NCBI RefSeq assembly: GCF_001447785.1 | Contig: NW_015162474.1 | Coordinates: forward strand, 1,304,417 to 1,368,416 | Source of the DNA: Gekko japonicus | Taxonomy: Eukaryota | DNA length: 64,000 nucleotides | Reading direction: 5' to 3' | Shown here: one piece after another, positions 14,993 through 64,000 of the stretch | How the letters are laid out: each line of letters begins with the position of its first letter | Numbering within the stretch: the first letter of the stretch is position 1 | Position numbers and translations under genes: made by a program | Notes under the pieces: generated by a model | What the model was told of the DNA's origin: nothing | Seen by the model: only the letters and a program-made list of their open reading frames with translations | The model's database searches: none

Positions 14993-17525
14993 CTGAAAGA
15001 AGAACCAGAATTTAGTACGTGGATGTTTAAGGAGAAAACTATCTTTCCTTATATATAATTGAGTAATGGGGTGGCACTTTCTGAACATTCCACACACTCC
15101 TAAATCAGTTGGCTCCATGATCTGTCACTCAGAAGCTGTCCCTATCCACTGGCTGTGTTGCCTAAGTACCGCCCACAGTGCACTCCGTCAGCCGCCACTC
15201 AAGAGTACTCACGTGCCATTGGCCAGGTGCTGGGTCTGCTCCTCTTCCCCGCCCACTCCAGCCACTGTTCCCTGTCAGAATACACTCTCTCTCCTGAGAA
15301 AGACAACTTGCCTGCTTGGCTCCTCTGTGGGACTAATTTTTCTCTCAGTGGCTGTTGGTAGGCAACCAAGCTTGGTTTTGTCAGTAAAAAGACAAAGGAA
15401 CAAAACTCTTTCCATGCCTTTGTGAAGAACTCATTGGGGCCAGTCCTGACTAGGGTTGCCAGCTCCAGGTTGGGAAATTCCTCCTGAGTCCTTCTGCCTC
15501 CCCAACACTGCCCTCCGCAGGATCCACCCCCCAAATCTCCAGGTATTTCCCTACTCAGAGCTGGGAACCCTACTTTCCCCTCAGTGCCTGTTGCTAGGCA
15601 ACCAAGCTTGGTTCTGTCAGTAACAGGCCCTTTCCACAGCTATTTTGGCCTTTGGGAGAAAACTCATTGGAGCCAGTCCTGACTGGAGTTGCCAGCTCCA
15701 GGTAGGGATATTCTGTGTCTATGGAAGTCAGAGTCTGGGCAGGGGCCTCAGCTAACAGAATGCTATAGAGGCCACTGTCCAAAGCAGTTAATTTTCCCGG
15801 GGGGAGGGGGAGATCTGTTGTCTGGAGTTCAGTTGTGATACCTGGCGATCTTCAGGCTCCACCTGGAGGTTGGCTATCTTAGGTGTAGCAGTCAGCGCTT
15901 CAGAGCAGTGTCTGCTAGACCCAGGTTCTTGTGGCAGCTGACTGGGTGATTTTGGACCAGTCACAAACTTTCAGCCTAACCTACCTCACAGGGTCGTTGT
16001 GGAAGTCAAAGGGGGGGGGGAGAATGATGTAAGCTGCTATGGTCCCCATTGCAGCGAAATACTACTTTTCCTCCTGGGGAACCACTATTGCCAATCTCGA
16101 GGTGAGAGCTGGAGATCACTCAGAATTACAACTGGTCTCCAGATTCAGTTACCCTGAAGAAAATGGTGGACTCTGTGTCCTAATACTCTGCTGAGATACC
16201 CCCCCATGACAGCCAATGTGACGTAGCAGTCAGGGCTTCAGAGCATGGTAGAGGCTGCAGGTGTGTGTGTGGGAGACGGAAAGCTGAAGAGTGAGGGGCA
16301 GATAAAGGCAGGTTGATGCTTGGCTGGGAAGGAGACAGAGTTGCCAACTCCAGGTTGGGAAATTCCTGGAGACTTAAGGGGTAGAGCCTGGAGAGGGTGG
16401 GGTTTGAAGAGGGGTGGGACCTCAGATAGGTACAATGCCATAGACTCCACCCTCCAAACCAGCCATTTCCTCCTGGGGAATCACTGCCACTCTGGGGGAC
16501 CATTGCCAATCTCCAGGTAAGGGCTGGAGATCACTCAGAATTACAACTGCTCTCCAGGAGGGAGGGCAGAAGTCAGCTGAAGACAGAGGGGCAGATAACG
16601 GTAGGTTGATGATTAGCTGGGAAGGAGATGGGGTTGCCAACTCCAGGTTGGGAAATTCCAGGTGATTTGAGGGGTGGAGCCTGGAGAGGGTGGGATTTGA
16701 GAAGGAGTTAGACCTTAGGTAGAATGCCATAGATTCCACCCTCAAAACCAGCCCTTTCCTCCTGGGTATCAATTGTTGCCAATCTTCAGGTGAGGGCTGG
16801 ATTTTTACAACTGCTCTTCAGGTAGCAGAGATCAGTTCCTCTCGAGAAAATGCTGAGGTCGCCACAGCAAATTGACACTGAGTGTCCAAGGCCGGGGCAC
16901 TCTCCCAGAGCCTCTTTCTAGAGTTCGTTGTATTTATTTCCACAACGGGCCTTATTCCTAGTATTCCAAATATGTCCTAAAAATTCTCCAGTTTAATTTT
17001 GAGCAAATAAGCTTACCTGGAAGCACAGAGTGTAAAACCATAAAATCATTTCACAGACATCTATATCGTTATAAGCAATGCTCCCTCTACCTGTGGGGTC
17101 TTGTGAGCAAAAATTCTACTTTGTGAGCTACTGGTATTAAAGTTGTGAACGAGCAATTTGGCTACTGCATAAATTAGTTTGCTGTGGAGCCATCCTTCCT
17201 GAGCCAAGACAAAAATTTGTGAGCTGGAGGCTAAAAAACTGTGAGCTAGCTCACACTAACTCAGCTTAGAGGGAACACTGGTTATAAGATGTCCATTAAG
17301 ACATCTTATAAAGCAATTATTTTTTCTGTTAAAGTTTAAAGACATTCTCTCATAAGTTGTACCTTGGAGCTGCTTTGATGATGTCATCCACACGGAGAAT
17401 CACTTCTGCTGCTTCTGCAGCACTCAGCAACACTTGCCGTTTCACCTGAAAGCTTTCAATTACTCCCAGATTTCCCATGTCTGCAATGGCACCCTTCTTC
17501 ATGTCTTCAAGATATTAGAATAATA

Positions 17526-20500: not shown

Positions 20501-23500
20501 CAAGGACACAGAGAGCATCATGTAAAGATCTTTCCGCCTCATCTATGATCTGCTGCGTCGCACCACGGAGAACTATGGTACAAGCTTCACCTAAAGACAG
20601 CCAAGATTACAAAACAGCAGTTAATTCTAGTTAGATCAACCACTCAGAAATTTTTAATGTCCCAATATCTACCATGACCCAGTTCAAATGTTATTCTTGC
20701 AGCATGGTTGGCGCCCCACAATGACTGGGTCTCCCATTTCATCTGAATGTATGGGAAACTCTGCCTCATGGATTTCCTCCATCATGTAATGGAGTCCCAT
20801 GCAGTGTTCCCTCTAAGCTGAGTTAGTGTGAGCTAGCTCAGTTTTTTAACCTCCGGCTCACACATTTGTGTCTTCGCTCAGGAAGGATGGCTTCAGAGCA
20901 AACTGATCTATGCAGTAGCTGAATCACTCGCTCACAACTTTAATGCCAGTAGCTCACAAAGTAGAGTTTTTGCTCACAAGACTCCACAGCTTAGAGGGAA
21001 CATTGGTCCCATGTCCACCCCCCTCTCTCAAATGAGCAGATTCTGTCATGAAGAAGTATCTGCATAACCTGGCCACCCATAGTGGCAGAGGTGGAACTTC
21101 AAGAATTAACAGTGGGTTTGAGAAGAACTCCTTCGACTTGAAGGAGATCTTCTCAGCCTTCCCTTTCCCCCCAGATGAAGCCACCACAACCTACCCATAG
21201 CAACTCCAGAGAAGTGAATAAGTTTATCTTCACCAATCATAACTTCTTCAATAAGGTTGCAGGTCCCTAGCTTTACCAGCTCTGGGTGATCGAAGGTTGA
21301 AGCAATTTCACCACCTGTGAACGTAAATTTACATAGCTACTGGCTACTATAAAACACCTTTTAAAAACTTAATATTTTGTAGGATAAAAATCCACATCCC
21401 AAACTGCAGTGTACGCTGCTAAAACAAACACCATGAACTAACGTTATGTAAATCAATAAGAACTAGAAACTGAACGCTAGAGCTGAATTACGATCTTTCG
21501 TAGCTGGTAAGGTCTGTGGAGAGGCCTGGTTTGGCGGCAGCTTTTTTTTTTTTTTTTTGCCTCGAGATGTCAGATCATTTAATAAAGTGAAGACATTTGA
21601 ACAAAATCTGTCCATTGTTATGCCACAAAACTTGAATACCAGCAACTTAATATCTTCGAAAAGATTCACAGAACGAGGGATGTTTTGGATCTTTTCAGTG
21701 CTTGACAACTTTTTGTGTGTGTATTGTGTGTATAGCTCTGTCCAACCTGATAATGCATGAATCATTAGCCAGCTTCATAAGGAGCTTTAGGAGCTTAAAG
21801 TTATTTTTATAAGAATTTCCAGCTTCTCTTCCACAAGCCAAGAGAAGAAGAACAGCAAGGAAAAAATCTGTCCACTGTAGGATAAAAAGAATGGCTGGGA
21901 TCCATGGGGAGAATTTCCACCAGTTCTCACCAGTATGTTACATTGCACAGTATTAATAGGAAATATAGGAAAATCAGATTGCATGAGTGGAATCTGCAGT
22001 TCTTTGGATTCAAATCTATGTCTTTTAACTCTTAGGACACAGCCAAGTGCCTTCAGTTCACAGACAAGTTGAAGGACACCATTGCTCTAGCCTTTAAACC
22101 TCTAGATACACACAATCTTCAAGTACTACATTTTGCAGACATTTCATCCACTTCTGTTGTAGCAATTTCTTCACTGAACACTTTGAAATGACTGCAAATA
22201 CAAAGCCAAAAATCAACAATATGTTGGTCAACACCAACTCTTGAATAAATAATTTGTCACTGTACCTGTAACAAGAGCCAAACGTTCAACTCCAGCAAAA
22301 TCTGCATGTTCAATAGCCATAACACCTGCAGCAGCAAACAACTGTTCTGGGTAGTTATAGATCAACTGCCTGCAATTAAAATGAATGCATCATAATGTGG
22401 AAGAAAGCAGGCTTATTTTTTCTCTCTTTACAGAAAGATTTCATGAAGGCCCACACATACCTGTTGATAAAACAATTTATTCCATGCTTCAGAATACGCT
22501 CAACCTTCTCCTTCATTTTCTCTTTTTCAGCTTGTTCTATTTCTGCCACCTTTGCTGTAGAATCCACTCGTACACGGGATCCAAATATCTAAATTCAAGA
22601 ATCAAGACCAGGCAGCAATATTTCCTAAATTGTTTTTTTAATACACACTCACACTACATAAATAAAATACATGAACACCTGCATCTGCCTTCTACTGGCT
22701 GAGATCCTTCGTCCATCAAGGTCAATACTGTCTATTCAGAATGGCAGCAGCTCTCCACTGTCTCAGGTAGTTATGTCTCATCACCTACTGTCTGGTCCTT
22801 TTAACTGGAGATGCTGGAGGATTGAACCTAGGACCTTCTGCATGATGAGCAGATGCTCTACCACTGAGCCTTAGCCCCTCTCCCTCTCATAGTGTTTACT
22901 GTGCTATTTTGTGCAGCATTTTAATTGTTTATATTATTTTATTTGCTTGTAAGCTCTTGAGCTGCTTCAGTATAAAAAGTGGGCCAGAAATTAATTTTTT
23001 AAATGTAATTTTTAGTTTACTTATATTCCATATTCTGGCAGATCAAATGTAGCAAATGAAAGTGTTTTTACCTCCCCCCCCCATCACTCACCTTAATTTT
23101 ATCAGTATCCATGCCAGTATTTGCAATAAGTATCTTTGCATTTTCAATTCTTTTTGGCTGGTTTACTCCAATTTTTTTATCCAACAGAAAACCTGAAAGG
23201 GAAGACAAGAGGCAAACAGACTTACTTTACAACAGTAAACCTATTTGATACTTTCCATTTTGCAATTAATTGTATAACATTCATTTAGAAGAGAAATTAA
23301 AACAGGAAACTTTTCCTAACCCACTGCCTGAAACATCAATAGTTTTAGACTGTGGGAAATTAAAATACATATAGTCATGAAAAAAACCTCCCAGTGACAG
23401 TGTGGAAAAATATGTACACTGGAAATGGGTAACAAAGGTATAGCCAGAACACAAGAAAATAGTTAAGCATCCATCCTTGAGAAATCAAAGTTAAGACAGA

Positions 23501-41937: not shown

Positions 41938-42275
41938 GAGGGGCTATGGCTCAGTGGTACAGCATCTGCTTGGAATGCAGAAGGTCCCAGGATCAATCTC
42001 TGTCATCTCCAGTTAAGAGGACCAGGCAATAGGTGATGTGAAAGAACTTCTACCTGAGGCCCTGGAGAGCTACTGACAGTCTGAGTAGAAGAAGTGAGTA
42101 GTGACTCACAAAAGCTCATACCCTACCACAAATTTTGTTTAAGGTGCTACTGGGAACGTACTCTTTTCTACTGCTACAGACTGACTAACACGGCTACCCA
42201 TCTTGATCTGAGTAGACAATAGTAACTGTGATGAACCAATGGTCTGATTCAGTATAAGGCAGCTTCATGTGTGTT
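41938..42275 (+). mobile_element. Squam3-type SINE with nested Penelope pLTR fragment (42090-42206)
   Basis: GGCTCAGTGGTACAGCATCTGCTT head, GGCAGCTTCATGTGTG tail; insert flanked by 10-bp direct repeat tctgagtaga (42080-42089, 42207-42216). Confidence 0.85.
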
Positions 42276-53200: not shown

Positions 53201-56200
53201 AACACAGATCAGACAAAGAGTCTGGCATCCCTGTAGTCTGGCTTCTTGTTTCCAACCAGTTAGGTGAGTCAGGAAAGCCAACGGACAAGGCATGAGGACA
53301 AAAGTTGTTCTCCACTGTTGCTCCTGCCTCCCATCAACTGGCATCATAGACATGCTGCCTCTGAAGATAGAGATCCTACTTAGCCATCATGGCTGACAGC
53401 TTGATTGGTCTGTCTTATCTCCTTTTAAAGCCATCTAAATGAAAGGTCATCATCATATCTTCTGACAACAAACTCCAAAATGTAATTATGAATTGTATAA
53501 AAATTATTCCTTTTATCGGTTTAGAATTTATTGCCCAACAGTTTAATTGGACATCCCCAGGGCTATTTTTGGGCAGGAACGCACAGGAACGGAGTTCCGG
53601 CTGGCTTTCAAGTTGGCCACACCCAGCAGGAACTCATTAGCATAATAGGCCACACCCAACAGCAGAAACTCATTAGGATTGGCTACATTAGGGGTGTGTG
53701 GCCTAACATGCAAAGGAGTTCCTGCTACAAAAAAAGCCCTGGGTAAACAGAATAAGAAGCAAACGGTGGGTGTGGCTGGATAAGCACACTTCTGGTAACA
53801 TGGGGGTGCGGCCTAATATGCCAATGAGTTGTGCTGTCAGGGGTGTGGCCTAATATGCTAATGAGTTTCTGCTGTTGGGTGTGGCCTATTATGCTAATGA
53901 GTTTCTGCTGGGCTTTTTCTACAAAAAAAGCCCTGGACTTCCCCAAATTCTAACATCATAGTAGAGGGAGAAAAAACTCTTACCTGCTTTCTCCACACCT
54001 TAAGACTAACACATTTTACCTCTCTATGTCCCAATGTAATTTTCTAAAATAAGAGGAACTAGAGGTTTAGCCACTCCATGCTGAGAAAATGTTCCATCCT
54101 GTTTATCAGCCATGCTAACCTGTAGCCATGTTAATCTAAGGACGGGATTCTCACAAATTAGGACATATCAATCTCCAGTTCTAACATATTTATTACCTAT
54201 GTTGCCCCCCCCCCGTTGAACCGAAACAGATGATAACCAGAAACATAGCATGTCATTCTTCTGATCTGTTTAAAAAAATATTTTCACTATTTTGCATGCT
54301 AATTTAACAAGCCACCTCTATATATACAAATGTGATATGTAATTCCATTTCATTGTCTGACAAAGTGTGCATGCACATAAAAGCTCACATCTTTTTTTTT
54401 TTTAATCCCCTGAAGGCAGGGTAGCTTTATTAATTTTTGTTACACCTACACACTAACAGAAAAAGAAAAGGGGAAGGGAAAAAGTACCCCAGGATAAAAG
54501 GACAGTAAATTAAACCCACACTATAACTAAAAACCCAAGAGGGAAGATCCTTAACAGTTAGTATTCAGTTAGTATTAAAACTTAAAACTTTTCATTTAAA
54601 TCAATGAATCCATGTTAGTGTTTAATCCAACTTTTCAAGTGTGCATCTTGAATAAAAATTTGTTGCTCTTAAAGGTGCTATTGGACTCTAACTTTGTTAC
54701 AAAATGCAAGTGTGACACTTTAAAGAGCAACACATTCTTTATTCTAAACTTCATAAGACTTCATGGACTATAGCCGAATTGTCAAAAGCATAAACATCTA
54801 TGGACGAATGTGCTCTAGTCCAAAGTGTATGTACTTGTCTTTAAGGTGTCATAAAATGCCTATAGGTTTTTGATAATTCTGGATTGCCATTTCTGCATTT
54901 GCTTTTCCCATTTAACAATATCTTTTCTAAGATGAAGCTAACAGTACTGGACATGGTATGCCAATGCCAAAGTGGCTTCACTACACAATAATGCTAATTT
55001 TATTTTCAAATTCCTTTCAGTAACCACTGATACAGGAGACTGCCTTTTTCACTGCCTGTACATATAGCTGGTATTTTTATTGAACTATTAATCATAACCC
55101 TAAAAGCAGGATCATCATGACCAAGTCAAACTATAGCGATCTTGTCTTCTTCCCTCCCTCACACACGGGATTTTCCCTTTTGTTTCTTCTTGCTTGCTCG
55201 CTTGCTGGGCAGTCCATGCATATATTTTCTTCTAATCTGTTGGTCTATGGCTGTCCCACCCTGTCATGTTATTACATATTTTGATGCTGGCCCAGCTGAG
55301 GGACTTGAGGGAAGAAACAAAATCACCTGCTTATACTCTAATGACACACAAGAGGCTTTTGAAAGGTCAAAAAAATAACCAAAATATTTTATTTAACTTG
55401 GAGAGAGGAAAGTCAAATGGACTCAGGGTAGGATGTATGAGGTGAACTGATAATAAAAACTGAGGTACCCTTGTAATCACACTAAATCCAGCTAATGTGT
55501 TGCCAACAAGTAAGTGTTTTTACTTTTCAACAAGGTCTTTAAAATTTTGAAGAGAGAGGCTTTTTTAGTTTTTGCTTTCACTCACAAGCAGAAATTTCTG
55601 AGTATCACTGACAATTCCAGTTTACAAGGCAGGAACGTACAACCAAGTTCCTAAAATCCTTCTATATGCATGAACCAGGGATCACTCTTTTAAGAGTTAT
55701 CTCTCTTTTCACTGCGCAGGGATTACTTCTCAACTAGAAGCTCTGTCCCTTTTCAGATTGAATTGGGATCTTCCATAATCCTCTCACTCCTCTTTACCTC
55801 CTTCCCAGCCTTCAGTCAGTGCTAAACTGTTTCTTCTTCAACTGTCAGTTCCGAACTGTCATTTCTTAACTGACACTCTTCACAGAATTCGGTTTGAACA
55901 CCCTGTCACTCAAAGGTTCTCAGACGCCATGAGGCATTAACCCTTGACAATCCATCACACAAACTTCATCAGTATAAGTGTGAAATTAGTTTTCTGCTCC
56001 AGTGTGCATTGGTTTTAATTTGCCACTTTTAGCATTCTGTCTACTTAGTCCATTTGAAGAGATCATACTGAAGCTCTTCATAGTTGTACGTGTTTTCAAC
56101 ATCTTGAAAAATGTGACATCGTCTGTACACTTGGTCACTTCACTGCTAACACATAATGCTCACACATAATTCTATATCAACTAGCAATGAGTTAACTGCT

Positions 56201-57456: not shown

Positions 57457-57869
57457 GACTTTTTCAGAAGACCATGTGATTGCTACAGCCAAAGCAAAGA
57501 AAACAATTTTAAGAAAGAGATGAAAGTAAACTGTGCAAATGGCAGTTATATGAAAACATAAAACTGGCAAAGGGCAGAATTACGCACCAATGTGGAGTTT
57601 ATAAACAAAAGAGCTGTCACTTAAATTTCTGTTGCATGGATTTACACTTTATGACAAATTAAATTTAGCTGTTTATTTATAAACACATATTTTTATGTTT
57701 TGAGTAAACAGAATGATTGGAAAATGAATATTGGGGATGAATCCAGAAGTAATTTCTCCCAATGGAAGGGATTTCAGTCAGTGGACTTTCTTGCCTCTCC
57801 CACTGCTGGCCAACACTTATTAAGAAGCAGGGCTTACAGTTAAAATAAATCACCAACATAGAAGCACAC

Positions 57870-58250
57870 AACTAATTAAAACAAGCCCAGAGACATAAAA
57901 AACTGTTTAAAACTATCCATAAAACAGACCTCAGACCAGAACCAGACGATAAAACAGCTGGAAAGATAATTAAAAACCTGGGTAAAAAGAAATGCTGTGG
58001 CCTGATACCTAAAAGACAGTACGGTGGGGGCCAGGTAAGTCTCAAGTAGAAGACTGCAACTGAAAATGCCATCTGTCTAATAACCATCTACTTCACCTCT
58101 GAAGGCAGGGGAAACAGAGCAGGGCTTGGGAGACAGAACTGGAGGGCTGGACAGTACAGGATGAGATGGTCCTTCAGGTACCTTTACCCCAAGCCATTTA
58201 GGGCCTTCAGAGTAAGAACCAGAGCTTTGAATTGTGCCCAGAAACAGTTG
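57870..58250 (-). mobile_element. Old L2 3' end (continues at 61995-62125 and 63071-64000)
   Basis: Minus gcacaattcaaagctctggttcttactctgaaggccctaaatggcttgggg..ctgaaggaccatctc = QFKALVLTLKALNGLG..LKDHL. Confidence 0.7.
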
Positions 58251-58259
58251 AACGGGACT

Positions 58260-61200
58260 GGAGGAAACCATCGGACTTTAGCCAGCGGGCAGGCAGAATC
58301 TCACATGATTCGGTTTTAATAGCATTATAGTCCTGCAAAGTTGGATAATTGATTGATTATTTATTGTCTATTGGGGTAGTTAATTAACTGGGGTTTATGA
58401 TTTAAATTGAATTAATTGGGGGGTATGATTTAAACAGTAGACAGTGAGGAACCGACTAAATCAATTGATTAGAGGATGTGATTAAATTATTTAATTAAGT
58501 ATTATTGTGACTTAGCTATCCTACAGCGGGACTGATTAGAGCATAGCGGAATTGACTGTATCACTATGATGATCCCTGGCCTTTAAAGAAATCACTGGCC
58601 TTGAGAAAGAGAAATGGATTGAAACTTAAGTGCTAGCTAACTAGGGGTTGGGTGGTTATTTAGTAGGTCAGAAGGGTCTGTCAGGACAGATTAGGCTTCT
58701 AAGGTTAACAACACTAAGAGAACCTGCGAACTGCCATTAGTAGCACCATACTAGGATATACCATCTAATCAACTATCAGGGGTATGAGGCTCAGAGTAGC
58801 GAAGATCATTAGTGGCTGATAATGATGGGCCAGGGAATACCAGTGCTCCTGGGGAGAGGAAAGTACAGCGGTGGGACCAGGCAGGAATGGAAGGGGGAAG
58901 AGAAATAGAGAAGCTCGGCCACCTTCCAGCCTGCATCCCATCCCACAGGTGGCAGGCAGTGGGGCTAGGAGTAAAAACCCCACTCCGACATTGGTGTTCT
59001 GCAACGCCAGATCCATAAATAATGAGACCTCAGTCCTTCGTGACTTCCTGCTGGAGCAGGACGTGAATCTGGCGTGCGTGACCGAAACCTGGGTACGCGA
59101 TGGGGAGACGGTTGCTCTCTCCCAGTTGGCTCCTCCCGGGTTCTCAGTCCTCCACCAATCTCAGACTAAGGGGCTGGGGGGGAGAGTGGCTCTGTTCATT
59201 CGGGAGGCTTACTCCTTCAGGGCGCTCCCATCACTGAGGCTCACAGGCATCGAGTGTGCCGGCTTTGTGTGGGAAGCCGGGGAGAGTTTGACTGTTTGGC
59301 TGCTGTACTGACCGCTGGGCATTGGAGCACCCTAGACTGATAGTCCTGGGTGACTTCAAAGTCCATGCTGACGATGTGGCTTCCTCACAGGCGGTGGACC
59401 TGGTGTTGTCCATGGTGGCACTGGGACTCTCACAACATGTAACGGCCCCTACTCACCGAGCCAGTCAAACGCTTGATTTGATCTTTGCAGCAGGGGTCAC
59501 AGTGGACCAGACTGCTGCTATGGCAGTTTCATGGTCGGACCACCATGCCCTGAAGACCCGAGTGAATGTGTCACCCCAACCCTGTTTGGGCGGTGAACGT
59601 ATTTTAGCTTGCCCGCAGAGCCAAATGGATCCTCTGCAGCTGCAGATAGCTCTTTGGGATCCAATGCCCCCTGACGGCTCACTTGATGAACTAGTCGAGG
59701 ACTGGCATGGCCAACTCTTGACAGCCATCGACAAGCTCACTCCCAGACGTCCTCTGCATCCTCGCTCTAGGTTGGCTCCCTGGTATACCCAGGAGCTGAG
59801 GCTGATGAAGCGAAGGCTTAGATAGCTAGAGAGACAGTGGCGGTGCGCACGTGACGAAGCAACAAGAGCATCTTATAGGACGTTTATGAGATCCTGTGAG
59901 ATGGCAGTCAAAGCTATAAAGAGGGAGTTCTACGCAGCCACTATGGTGTCTACAAGCTCACGCCCAGCCCAATTGTATAGAACTATTCGGTCTTTAACAG
60001 TCTTGCCACAGGGCAGACAAAACATCAGTGAATTGGATACAGGCTGTGAGGCTTTCGCGAGCTATTTTGCAGATAAAGTCTTGTTGCTCCACCGCGACCT
60101 CCCGGCCACAGTTGAGACAGTGAGTGAACTTGAGGCTCCAAGCACATCTTCTGGTCCTATTCTGGATTATTTCAGTCCACTCAGCCCAGAGGAAGTTGAC
60201 AGACTGATCTCAACAGTACGCCCAAACACATGCAGCCTTGACCCATGCCCCTCCTGGCTAATTAAAGCTGGCCGTGAGGGGTTTTGAGGTGCCCTTAGGG
60301 ATATTATCAACAAGTCCCTCTCTGAAGGGCTGTTCCTGGGGGATCTCAAGGAAGCGATAGTCCGCCCTCTTCTAAAAAAACCATCTCTGGATCCGGCCGA
60401 ATTGGCTATTGGCCGGTTTCCAATTTGCCCTATTTGGGCAAATTAATTGAGAGGGCGGTGGGAACACAGTTGCAGAACTTTATGGATGACACTTCCACGC
60501 AGTCCAGCTTCTGCCCAGGCCATGGGATGGAGACAGCATTGGTCGCCCTCACAGATGACCTCCGGAGGCACCTGGATCAGGGCGGGACGGCAGTGCTGTT
60601 GTTGTTGGACCTGTCAGCAGCGTTCGACACGGTCGACCACCAGCTACTGGCCCACCACCTCGCCGACATGGGGATTCAGGGGCTTGCCTTGCAATGGCTC
60701 GTCTCCTTTCTCCAAGGTCAGGGACAAAGGGTGGCTCTTGGGGAGCAGCTGTCCTGAAGGCACCCACTAATCTGTGGAGTGCCTCAAGGGGTGGTGCTTT
60801 CCCTGATGCTATTTAACATCTATACACGCCCCCTTGCCCAGACTTCCCGGAGGCATGGGCTAGGGTGTCACCAATATACGGATGACTCTCAGCTCTATAT
60901 GTTGTTGGGCGGTCAGTCTGACTCTACCCTAGAAGACCTAGACCAGGCATTACAGGACGTGGCTGGATGGCTTAGACTGAGTCAATTGAAATTGAATCCG
61001 ACGAAGACGGAGGTCCTGTGCCTGAATTGGAGCAGATCAGGGGTAGGGATCCCACTACCAGCCTTTGATGGGGTGCCGCTGGTGCCAGCGCTGAGGGTCA
61101 GGAGTCTGGGAGTGCTCCTGGATGCTTCCCTAACAATGGAGGCCCAGGTAGCAGCCACTGCCAAGGCAGCCTTTTACCATCTCCAGCTGATTAGGCAGTT

Positions 61201-61960
61201 GGTTCCCTTCCTAGAATGCAATGATCTGGCTGCAGTGATCCACGCAATGGTCACCTCGAGGTGACTACTGCAATGCTCTCTACTTGGGGCTGCCCTTGGT
61301 GCAACTCCAGAAGCTGCAGCTGGTACAAAATGTGGCGGCCAGGCTGCTGATGGGCCTCCCTATGTGGGAGCATATCTGGCCTGTGCTAAAGACATTGCAT
61401 TGGCTGCCAATAACATACTGGATTTGCTTCAAGGTGCTAGTTTTGACCTTTAAAGCCCTTTATGGTCAGGGACCTGCCTACCTGAGGGACCGCCTTTCCC
61501 CACATATTCCCCAGAGAGCACTGCAATCAGGGGCACAAAACTGCTTGGCCCTCCCTGGCCCGAAGGTCGCCAGGTTGATATCGACCAGGACCAGGGCATT
61601 CTCTTTGGCAGCTCCGACTTATTGGAATGAGCTCCCGGGCAAGATCAGGGCCCTGCGGGATCTTCCACAGTTCCGCAGGGCCATGAAAACAGAGCTCTTC
61701 CGGCAGGCATTTCGGTAGGAGCTGCACTTTATCAGGTATGCCCTGGGCTGATTTTATCTCCAGCTTAAGCCACCTAGGTGGAGGCACCACTGAACGTGTT
61801 CTTACACGCACTTTATTATATTTGTACCGCCATTGGTATAGTAATGGTTTTAAATTGTCTATTATGTATTTTATACCGAGACCTATATTATTTTATTCAT
61901 TCTTATGTAAGCCACCCTGAGCCTGCCTCGGCAGGGAGGGCAGGGTAAAAGTTAAAGTAA

Positions 61961-61991
<31 letters not shown>

Positions 61992-61994
61992 ATA
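58260..61994 (+). mobile_element. Long, relatively young L2-clade LINE with disrupted ORF2, in FRS2 5'UTR intron
   Basis: APE: CNARSI, CVTETW, VLGDF, SDHHA; RT: LLDLSAAFDTVDH, GVPQG, YTDD; ORF2 ends 61718; tail TGTAAGCCACCCTGAG stem-loop + (TAAA)n; several stops and frameshifts. Confidence 0.93.
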
Positions 61995-62125
61995 GGAGAC
62001 CTTTCAGTACATGGCTGATACAATCCCTGTAAGTTACCAACTCCTGACAAATAGCCTGGCTCTCATATTTTAAACCAAGTGAAGTTTCTGGACTATTTTC
62101 AAAGGCAGCCCTATATACAACATTA

Positions 62126-63070
62126 TCTCTCCTTATATATAATTGTAAAGTGGAGTGGCACTTTCCAGCTCTCCCATTGGCTGTGCAATGCGCTCCCTCA
62201 GCCATTGGCTGGGTGCTGTGTAGGGACCCCCTGTTGACTTATGCCCTATTGGTTCATAGTGTGTGCTTACTCCTACAGTTGTGCCTTATTCATTTAGTGT
62301 GTGTGCACTTCATAATTGTGTAAATAGTTAAATAAATTCTTTTATTTGGGCTAATAATCTGTGTTGTGCTCTGACCACATAGTCTCCCCTGCTCTGCACA
62401 ATACCAAAGGGAGGGAGTAGCCCAGGGAAGCAAGGAAAGGCCAGACCCTTGGGTTGCCAACTTTCCAGGGATCCCCCAAAGATTGGGGATTCCATCTCCA
62501 AATAGGGGTCTCACTGTCCCTCTAAAAAAGCAGTGACAATTCAGTGAGTGGTGGCAGCGAACTTAAGGAGGGAGATACGCCCACCGGATGAGGGTGGGAG
62601 GCAAACAGCTGAGTGGTGAACTGGAGCCCGTTTTGCCACAGTAGGCAACCAAGCTTGGTTCAGACAAAGGAAGGAAACCCTTCACAGGCCTTTGTGAGGA
62701 ACTCATTGGGGCCAGTCCTGACTAGGGTTGCCAGCTCCAGGTAGGGAGATTCCTGGAGATTTTCTGGTAGATCCTATGGAAACCAGTGTTTGGGGAGGGG
62801 AGAGGCCTCAGCTGAACAGAATGCCATAAAGCCCACCTTCCAAAGCAGTTGTTTTCTTTTTTTGGGGGGGGGGAGATTTGTTGTCTGGAGTTCAACTGCT
62901 CTTCAGGTAGCAGAGATCAGTTCCTCTGGATAAAATGGTGGACTCTGTGTCATTATACCCTGCTGAGGTCACCACAGCAAATTGACGCAGAGTGCCCAAG
63001 GCCTTGGCACTCTCCCAGGGCCTCTTCTAGAGTTTGTTGTATTTATTTCCACAACGGGCCTTATTCCTAG
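62126..63070 (+). mobile_element. Non-autonomous Helitron-like element, copy 2
   Basis: A|TCTCTCCTTATATATAATTG ... GTTTGTTGTATTTATTTCCACAACGGGCCTTATTCCTAG|T; interrupts an L2 with no TSD. Confidence 0.85.
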
Positions 63071-64000
63071 TACTAATATAACTTAGATGTGATCGGAGCA
63101 TGGCTCACCATGGCAAGATCACATTTTCTGAAACACAGCAATAGCTGGCATATCAGCCAAAGCTTATAAAGGGTGCTAAGTGCCACAGAGGAGATCTTAG
63201 TCTCCAACCACAGGCCAGGACCCAGCAGTACCCCCGAATTATGAACCTACTCTTTCAGAGGAGTGCAGCTCTCTTCCAGACAGATTGAGTTCATAGTCCA
63301 TGAACAGATTCTCAGTCTTGCCTGGATTAAGCTTCAGTTCTCATCCATCCCATTACGTTCTCAAGGTACCAAATCAGGACTTCTACAGACCCACTCAGCT
63401 GTTACGGAGAACTAGAGCTCGTCATTCGCATACTGGTAATACCTCACTCCAAGTCCTTAGATGACCTCTTCCTGCAGTTTCATGTAGATGTTAAACAGCA
63501 TAAATGACCCAGGGCTCAGCAGCCGTACCACAACACCACCTTCTGAAATTAGCTGGTCAGGCAGAGCAAAGCCAACACAGCACAGACCCTCCCCCCCAAC
63601 TAACCTATCCAGAAGTATACCACGGGTGATGGTACTGAAAATGGATGATAGGTCCAGGAGAATCAACAGGGAGGTACTCCCCCTGTCTCTTTCCTGGGAA
63701 AGGTAATCAGTCAAGGCAACAAAGGCTGTTGAAATGGAGCACCTTGCCCAAGAATGGAATGTTAGCAACTTTGTAGTACTTACTTAGGTCATTTGGGTCT
63801 AGAGATGAGGGGCCTCACAACTGCTTCTTTCAAAGCTGTGGGAAATACATACCCTCCTATAGAGAAGCATTTATTACCTTCTGGGCCCATTCAACCAACC
63901 CAGCCTGGCACACTATTATTAGCCAAGAGCAACAAGGGACAAGCCCAAAAGTGGGTGCTCTGCCACTTCAAAGCCGCTTGTCTGCTTCATCAGGTCTCAC
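63071..64000 (-). mobile_element. Old L2 RT fragment
   Basis: TAFVALTDYLSQERDRGSTSLLILLDLSSIFSTI..MLFNIYMK; YANDE (YADD-like). Confidence 0.8.

What the first reader, a model, noticed from the sequence alone, without database searches (positions are those of the whole stretch)
62126..63070. Helitron copy 2 splits an L2 at an AT dinucleotide, giving an internal empty-site control
Seen: removing 62126-63070 joins ...tatacaacatta|tactaatataacttagatgtg.... On the minus strand this restores the L2 block HAPITSKL-Y*YN..LYIGLPLKIVQKL (compare VIHAMVTSR.DYCNALYLGLP at 61240-61295), with no duplicated bases at the junction. This fixes both ends and shows TSD-free insertion. This copy has different cargo (62230-62630) from copy 1, implying modular gain or loss.
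Basis: seen in the sequence. Interest (0 to 1): 0.7.

Follow-up and report, generated by a model that had tools for sequence, protein, structure and literature searches.

The report
Helitron carrying a hitchhiking solo LTR
A 945-base, protein-less jumping element of likely rolling-circle (Helitron) type sits between an A and a T inside an old LINE and is missing from the same spot in related organisms; its 'cargo' is the remnant of a likely retrotransposon end (solo LTR) that likely landed once inside the element and was then copied with it hundreds of times, a tidy but ordinary case of nested jumping genes.

Summary
62126-63070 runs TC...CTAG between A and T, and at least 2,282 copies share its 3' end. 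The flanks rejoin an old minus-strand L2-like LINE with no gap at the junction. A contig of organism C settles it: the site is empty, A|T, unduplicated; the 2-base loss is older than the insertion.

The 'cargo' is neither private nor host gene sequence. It is the 3' part of a ~1-kb TG...CA solo-LTR-like unit, framed by a GTAGG duplication in the Helitron. Free copies have their own 5-base duplications. Copy 1 shows the empty GTAGG site. At least 241 filled and 303 empty junctions exist. Copy 2 is an internally deleted member of the LTR-bearing subfamily. RepHel-coding elements with related ends exist but miss the 80% family cut-off. Precedents: composite anole Helitrons; nested retrogenes amplified by bat Helitrons. 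The scan noted other Helitrons in this genome, not this family. Verdict: real, new member of a known kind.

The parts
62126..63070 (+). Non-autonomous Helitron, copy 2 (945 bp); internally deleted member of the LTR-bearing subfamily
   Evidence: TC...CTAG between A and T; family ends; orthologous empty site
62126..62218 (+). Helitron 5' terminal module, cut short by deletions (the first lies between two 9-base repeats, read by eye against L039)
   Evidence: first 84 bases 84-97% identical to family 5' ends where they align; breakpoints
62219..62640 (+). 3' part (from about position 530 of ~1,000) of a solo-LTR-like unit; ends in CA; holds an AATAAA; lacks a 35-base stretch that free copies have
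   Evidence: 85% to free copy L109, 83% to L116; shared deletion
62641..62645 (+). GTAGG, right-hand copy of the 5-base target duplication of the LTR-like unit (the left copy is deleted here, present in other members)
62646..62892 (+). Internal Helitron module holding pieces of an abundant host repeat (GGGTTGCC-type; identity not tested)
   Evidence: (family D1)
62893..63070 (+). Helitron 3' terminal module; its junction with the upstream module matches exactly only here
63032..63059 (+). Subterminal hairpin (core stem 63036-63040/63051-63055; outer pairs degraded to G-T in this copy), ending 11 bases before the terminus
   Evidence: z -1.9 here, -3.3 in copy 1; paired changes among RepHel elements read by eye
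61997..62125 (-). Old L2-like LINE, piece left of the Helitron; carries a 2-base deletion near 62119-62121 older than the insertion
63071..63850 (-). Old L2-like LINE, piece right of the Helitron (RT region; right limit approximate, by eye from the translation)
57867..58257 (-). 3' continuation of the same old LINE beyond the younger LINE
58258..61994 (+). Younger L2-like LINE with (AATA)n tail, inserted into the old one (left limit approximate)
   Evidence: RVT_1 at 60758-61261
15042..16961 (+). Helitron copy 1 (1,920 bp), same family, LTR-free type
   Evidence: last 30 bases 30/30, first 30 bases 24/30 identical to copy 2
15358..15362 (+). Single GTAGG: empty site for the LTR-like unit in copy 1

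Best explanation
This is a protein-less Helitron-type element that was likely pasted, by a RepHel enzyme made elsewhere in the genome, between an A and a T of an already decayed LINE without duplicating a base, and its cargo is the 3' part of a likely solo LTR that likely inserted once into an ancestral copy and was then amplified as a passenger. Steps. (1) Shown: the old LINE already had the 2-base deletion and the A|T site. (2) Shown: a ~1-kb TG...CA unit sits in family members at one GTAGG site that is doubled around it and single in LTR-free members such as copy 1. (3) Inferred: an LTR retroelement integrated there, recombined to a solo LTR and lost 35 bases before the subfamily spread. 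(4) Inferred: rolling-circle copying in trans spread the composite to hundreds of sites, starting before organisms A and C split, since a C contig crosses the LTR-Helitron junction. (5) Shown: copy 2 is absent at this site in B and C; inferred: it arrived after the split. (6) Shown: copy 2 lacks 1.3 kb or more of longer members; inferred: these deletions arose in this copy, during or after copying.
For: T after the 3' end in 30 of 30 loci, next base variable (A 19, T 7, C 4). A before TC in 13 of 13 5' ends found among 30 loci. Exact orthologous empty site. Among 29 cargo-bearing loci the LTR end is followed by the GTAGG module in 25, and the LTR start follows the left module in 18. Free copies with both ends found: 15; 5-base duplication perfect in 4, 4/5 in 9, 3/5 in 2. 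The 35-base deletion is in 27 of 29 Helitron-borne copies (2 not scored) and in this copy; 9 of 13 free copies keep the stretch, 3 not scored, 1 (L095) lacks it. Tree of 30 Helitron-borne and 11 free copies: one origin not rejected (p-AU 0.435); copy 2 branch 0.026, against about 6% divergence between the window and organism C. 6 of 10 extended RepHel loci end in a homologous hairpin-CTAG; one (C3412) also has a related 5' end.
Against: The last 30 bases match RepHel elements at only 20/30 to 24/31, below the 80% family rule, so the actual mobilising partner is not identified. No internal region, primer-binding site or paired LTRs were found for the unit, so 'LTR' rests on ends, duplication and AATAAA. 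The best tree needs 2 label changes (L203 falls among Helitron-borne copies) and its bootstrap had not settled. A cruder 5' scan gave A before TC in 7 of 12 by script, 9 of 12 by eye. Copy 2's hairpin is weak (12 of 200 shuffles fold as well). Only one deletion junction was tested for uniqueness, by exact match.
Confidence: 0.87

Rival explanations
1. The element is a cut-and-paste transposon (Tc1/mariner-like) or a Helitron that duplicates TA; one TA is a target duplication.
For: TA stands on both sides of copy 2 and of copy 1. Against the paralogues a TA-duplication alignment costs only a 2-base gap (by hand). The X3 contig has 2 letters fewer near the site. Anole Helitrons were tabulated with 'TA' TSDs (PMC3014272).
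Against: The X4 contig uses one letter for both 62126 and 63071, an exact empty site, and the X3 and X20 left pieces run through A then T. The base after the T varies in 11 of 30 loci. No inverted repeat joining the two ends was listed (minimum length 30).
Confidence: 0.03
2. The cargo was captured by Helitron read-through of a locus that already held the solo LTR with both flanks, rather than inserting into a Helitron.
For: Helitrons bypass their 3' end and take flanking DNA (PMC4778049). The modules around the unit look like host repeats. 5 of 30 'empty-site' loci also carry LTR pieces upstream, so the module is sometimes duplicated.
Against: The same flanking module exists uninterrupted, with one GTAGG, in copy 1 and at 303 exact matches. 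Of 30 of these examined, 13 had a Helitron 5' end and 13 a 3' end within 1.5 kb, and 25 had no LTR sequence. Capture would need precise loss of the LTR hundreds of times, or two captures of one site.
Confidence: 0.07
3. The TG...CA unit is not an LTR but a non-autonomous DNA transposon with short imperfect inverted ends and a 5-base duplication (Ginger- or Transib-like; names recalled). The nesting history is unchanged.
For: About 10 of 13 terminal bases are complementary (by eye). No internal coding region was found. Related copies share the 3' third but differ in the 5' part.
Against: TG...CA ends, an internal AATAAA and a TATA-like box upstream (by eye), ~1-kb length and variable 5' halves all fit LTR families (recalled). 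No longer inverted repeats were seen.
Confidence: 0.15

Closest known systems
Non-autonomous canonical Helitrons (Helitron1 type), e.g. bat HelibatN moved by Helraiser/Helibat1 (PMC4778049, passages; PMC4224331, passages)
   Same: 5' TC, 3' CTAG, hairpin ending 11 bases before the terminus (11 in Helraiser too), A|T target, no duplication, no coding capacity, heterogeneous interior
   Different: Different sequence family in a lizard-like host; hairpin partly degraded; partner not matched at 80%
Anole composite Helitron-2N3_AC carrying Poseidon and SINE fragments (PMC3014272, passages)
   Same: High-copy, ~2-kb non-autonomous lizard Helitron carrying other transposable elements
   Different: Here the passenger is an LTR-like unit with its own target duplication and a matched empty site. 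That paper lists TA TSDs for Helitrons; this locus shows none. No sequence comparison with Helitron-2N3 was possible.
Nested retrogenes amplified by bat Helitrons, e.g. HelibatN211 to HelibatN424 (PMC4224331, passages)
   Same: Secondary insertion with TSD into a Helitron, empty-site exemplars, onward amplification
   Different: There L1-retroposed mRNAs (4 cases, 118 copies); here a solo-LTR-like unit at 241 or more exact junctions

Membership tests
Canonical Helitron (non-autonomous) | 5' TC terminus | tested here: met
Canonical Helitron (non-autonomous) | 3' CTRR terminus | tested here: met
   CTAG here; 28 of 30 loci
Canonical Helitron (non-autonomous) | Short subterminal hairpin | tested here: met
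   copy 1 z -3.3 (1 of 200 shuffles); copy 2 weaker, z -1.9 (12 of 200); paired changes among RepHel elements (by eye)
Canonical Helitron (non-autonomous) | Insertion between A and T with no target duplication | tested here: met
   orthologous empty site in X4; paralogue alignment
Canonical Helitron (non-autonomous) | [quoted passage not shown] | tested here: met
   2,282 exact 3' ends; unrelated flanks
Canonical Helitron (non-autonomous) | Autonomous RepHel partner of the same family (80% or more over the last 30 bases) | tested here: inconclusive
   34 PF14214 matches; 10 extended, 6 with homologous ends, 67-77% over 30 bases; the other matches were not extended
Canonical Helitron (non-autonomous) | Rolling-circle transposition shown biochemically | not testable with these tools
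   needs a donor/helper assay
Solo LTR (cargo) | TG...CA termini | tested here: met
Solo LTR (cargo) | 4-6 base target duplication at independent sites | tested here: met
   13 of 15 free copies with both ends match at 4/5 or 5/5; GTAGG on both sides in Helitrons
Solo LTR (cargo) | Parent with paired LTRs, primer-binding site, gag-pol | tested here: inconclusive
   not found in the loci fetched; superfamily unknown
L2 clade LINE (host site) | RT-coding LINE remnant with dispersed paralogues | tested here: met
   443 candidates, 68-78% for the 39 other copies scored; 38% protein identity to the neighbouring RVT_1-bearing LINE
L2 clade LINE (host site) | Placement in the L2 clade rather than CR1 or another | not tested
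   label recalled from the C-terminal motif; no reference library at hand
Tc1/mariner | TA duplication and terminal inverted repeats | tested here: not met

The most novel reading that the evidence does not exclude
The captured LTR is not a neutral passenger: it gave the Helitron subfamily a promoter and polyadenylation cassette that aided its spread, making rolling-circle copying, not retrotransposition, the main route by which this LTR reached hundreds of sites (241 or more exact Helitron junctions against 12 candidates for the closest free type). The numerical part is supported. The functional part is not excluded but has points against it: LTR-free members are as common, and the unit is often cut down (286-990 bases), copy 2 having lost the half with the TATA-like box.
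Probability: 0.1. Interest if true: 0.6.

Novelty: new member of a known kind. Interest (0 to 1): 0.3.

Why it matters
It is a clean worked example. An orthologous empty site shows that an apparent TA duplication around a lizard-type Helitron is not one, against a published table that lists TA TSDs for anole Helitrons. It also shows a solo-LTR-like unit being multiplied by a DNA transposon. Repeat annotation would count those copies as an LTR burst, and date it wrongly, when they came from likely one LTR insertion. If the unit kept promoter or polyadenylation activity, hundreds of such signals were spread by a Helitron. No new mechanism is needed.

Tried and rejected
Private or host-gene cargo: rejected; 62230-62630 has 2,014 candidates and lies in Helitron copies. 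Copy 2 as its own amplified 945-base subfamily: the 3' deletion junction matched exactly once in the genome; other junctions and mismatched versions were not tested. Parent element of the LTR-like unit: searched by end patterns and by free-type ends, four 10-kb extensions and a pair of hits 4.6 kb apart. That pair is a 99.4% duplication with 5'-truncated units and a Copia-type gag-pol fragment between them; I found no link to the parent. Rfam over the window gave only two tRNA-like hits far from the finding. Literature (search listings only): Helitron+gecko+non-autonomous, 4 papers; Helitron+solo LTR+nested+subfamily, 13; Helitron+solo LTR+amplified+chimeric+carrying, 4; Helitron+long terminal repeat+lizard+composite, 13. 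No listed title or abstract opening described this family or a Helitron-amplified solo LTR, but Repbase and Dfam are not searchable here and may hold it. My recollection that Helraiser needs transcription was not borne out in the passages seen (PMC5876387), so it is not used. PMC12001565 (passages) mentions nested TEs only as rare length inflation. Supplements of these papers were not read and may list such composites.

Full report
Observation. The element spans 62126-63070, begins TC after A and ends CTAG before T. A second copy lies at 15042-16961; the two share the last 30 bases exactly and 24 of the first 30. The window lies in a 2.49-Gb vertebrate assembly, G000; the repeats look like a lizard's, likely a gecko's (recalled, not tested). 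The 3' end gave 2,072 first-look candidates. In the 30 loci fetched it is followed by T in 30 of 30, reads CTAG in 28, and the next base is A in 19, T in 7 and C in 4. An exact 22-base pattern of the end occurs 2,282 times, the reversed control 0 times. Among 30 other loci, 13 showed a 5' end and all 13 follow an A; a cruder scan gave 7 of 12 by script and 9 of 12 by eye.

The internal control. With the element removed in a script, 23 of 29 paralogues of the host LINE align across the junction in one piece. The multiple alignment has no gap at the junction, and the two flanks are 78% and 80% identical to the paralogue majority. Most paralogues have C where this site has the target T, and TA borders the element on both sides. 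By hand, a TA duplication plus a 2-base loss fits the paralogues nearly as well, so the control was not decisive alone.

A real empty site. Public runs of other organisms hold the stretch. One contig of X4 (organism C) maps 61998-62126 to letters 349-473 and 63071-64000 to letters 473-1397, so a single T serves both sides: A|T, nothing doubled, nothing lost. One contig of X3 (organism B) also joins both flanks, 2 letters short just right of the site. A contig of X20 (organism E) matches the left flank and stops at 62126. All gaps of these left pieces lie at 62032-62045, so the 2-base deletion is older than the insertion. X4 differs from the window at 58 of about 925 letters. In organism A, X1 has an identical contig entering the element by 25 bases; X2 was uninformative.

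The cargo. 62230-62630 has 2,014 candidates; the 39 other places scored are 85-91% identical. In 29 fetched loci it continues into the same downstream Helitron module. Longer members show what it is: a unit starting TG and ending CA, with GTAGG on both sides. The right junction is seen in 25 of 29 loci and the left in 18. Copy 1 has the same flanks with one GTAGG at 15358-15362. Exact patterns give 241 filled and 303 empty junctions; 5 of 30 'empty' loci examined also have LTR pieces upstream, so some are second copies of the module. Of 23 loci where the unit's end is not followed by G, 18 are still Helitron-borne (unit 286-990 bases where both ends were found) and 5 are not. Free copies with both ends number 15 across two related groups and have their own 5-base duplications: perfect in 4, 4/5 in 9, 3/5 in 2 (in one search, 19 of 29 loci had no 5' end found and one locus was not printed). 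Copy 2's cargo is 85% identical to free copy L109. No internal region or parent was found, so the unit is 'solo-LTR-like', superfamily unknown.

One origin. A 35-base stretch near the unit's 3' end is missing in 27 of 29 Helitron-borne copies (2 not scored) and in copy 2, but present in 9 of 13 free copies (3 not scored; L095 lacks it). A tree of 30 Helitron-borne and 11 free copies (L095 dropped, match too short) has shorter branches for most Helitron-borne copies. It needs 2 label changes; holding the Helitron-borne copies together is not rejected (p-AU 0.435; bootstrap unsettled). Copy 1 is 73% identical to copy 2 over the module after GTAGG, against 78-93% (mean 89%) for 25 LTR-bearing copies, which fits a sister LTR-free lineage better than precise loss. 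Two X4 contigs cross the LTR-Helitron junction at 62640 (records 27 and 28), so the composite likely predates the A/C split while copy 2 (branch 0.026) likely postdates it.

Copy 2's own history. Members with both ends run about 2.2-3.1 kb (L040, L053, L042). Copy 2 lacks the left GTAGG, the first half of the unit and a block before 62893. That last junction matches exactly once in the genome.

Mobilisation. PF14214 finds 34 matches. Of 10 loci extended, 6 end in a homologous hairpin-CTAG before T (35-39 of 49 columns identical to copy 2's last 48 bases), and the element on C3412 also has a related 5' end (22/31). HUH and Walker A motifs are visible in one translation (by eye). [quoted passage not shown] The hairpin folds well in copy 1 (z -3.3) and weakly in copy 2 (z -1.9). 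The mechanism is taken from Helraiser: nick at TC, hairpin-guided end at CTAG, insertion into AT, which was preferred but not absolute (PMC4778049, passages).

Comparison and novelty. All sequence-level Helitron features tested were met; partner identity was inconclusive. Precedents: a composite anole Helitron with Poseidon and SINE pieces, in a paper that tabulates TA TSDs (PMC3014272, passages); mRNAs retroposed into bat Helitrons and amplified, shown by TSDs and empty exemplars, and a statement that these Helitrons carry retrotransposons (PMC4224331, passages); empty sites as the standard proof of mobility (PMC2997563, passages). Seven searches (listings only) showed no description of this family; repeat databases could not be searched. 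The scan's earlier notes concern other Helitrons in this genome; look-ups by sequence and by words found no note on this family. One note's use of sequencing runs prompted my empty-site test. Verdict: real and well resolved, a new member of a known kind; interest 0.3.

Noticed in passing
window 57867-58257, 58258-61994, 61997-62125: The old minus-strand LINE is split a second time, by a younger plus-strand L2-like LINE of about 3.7 kb; its 3' part resumes near 58257.
   Followed up: partly
L095 (G000:C2798, near 187,400): A 5'-truncated piece of the Helitron-type LTR unit (it has the 35-base deletion) lies outside a Helitron, between direct repeats of about 55 bases; possibly a repair-templated or retroposed copy.
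   Followed up: no
L237 (G000:C11276:39500-46500): A 99.4% duplication of 1.8 kb or more, with a Copia-type gag-pol fragment (Pol_BBD, Retrotran_gag_2, zf-CCHC) between the two copies.
   Followed up: partly
L092 and L095: Another LTR element has inserted into copies of the LTR-like unit; in L092 it brings a gag-like frame (by eye).
   Followed up: no
RepHel loci C14036, C9476, C3898 (L182-L183, L192-L195): Non-autonomous members of this Helitron family sit inside or directly beside RepHel-coding elements in 3 of 10 extended loci; on C14036 one follows the autonomous element's 3' end almost head to tail.
   Followed up: no
window 15338-15387 and 15574-15623; 16282-16429 and 16575-16722: Copy 1 has internal duplications of about 236 and 293 bases; family members vary in the number of such modules.
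   Followed up: partly
window 17091-17280 and 20802-20989: Long inverted arms (89-93%) about 3.5 kb apart just right of copy 1; possibly a cut-and-paste DNA transposon.
   Followed up: no
window 53622-53912; L123: A minisatellite-bearing inverted-repeat element (36-base period); a similar copy has inserted into a free LTR-like unit in L123.
   Followed up: no
window 22806-22878 (-) and 41940-42011 (+): Two tRNA-like Rfam hits, likely SINE heads.
   Followed up: no
window 63259-63833 against run X3: Organism B's orthologous contig skips about 575 bases of the old LINE right of the site.
   Followed up: no
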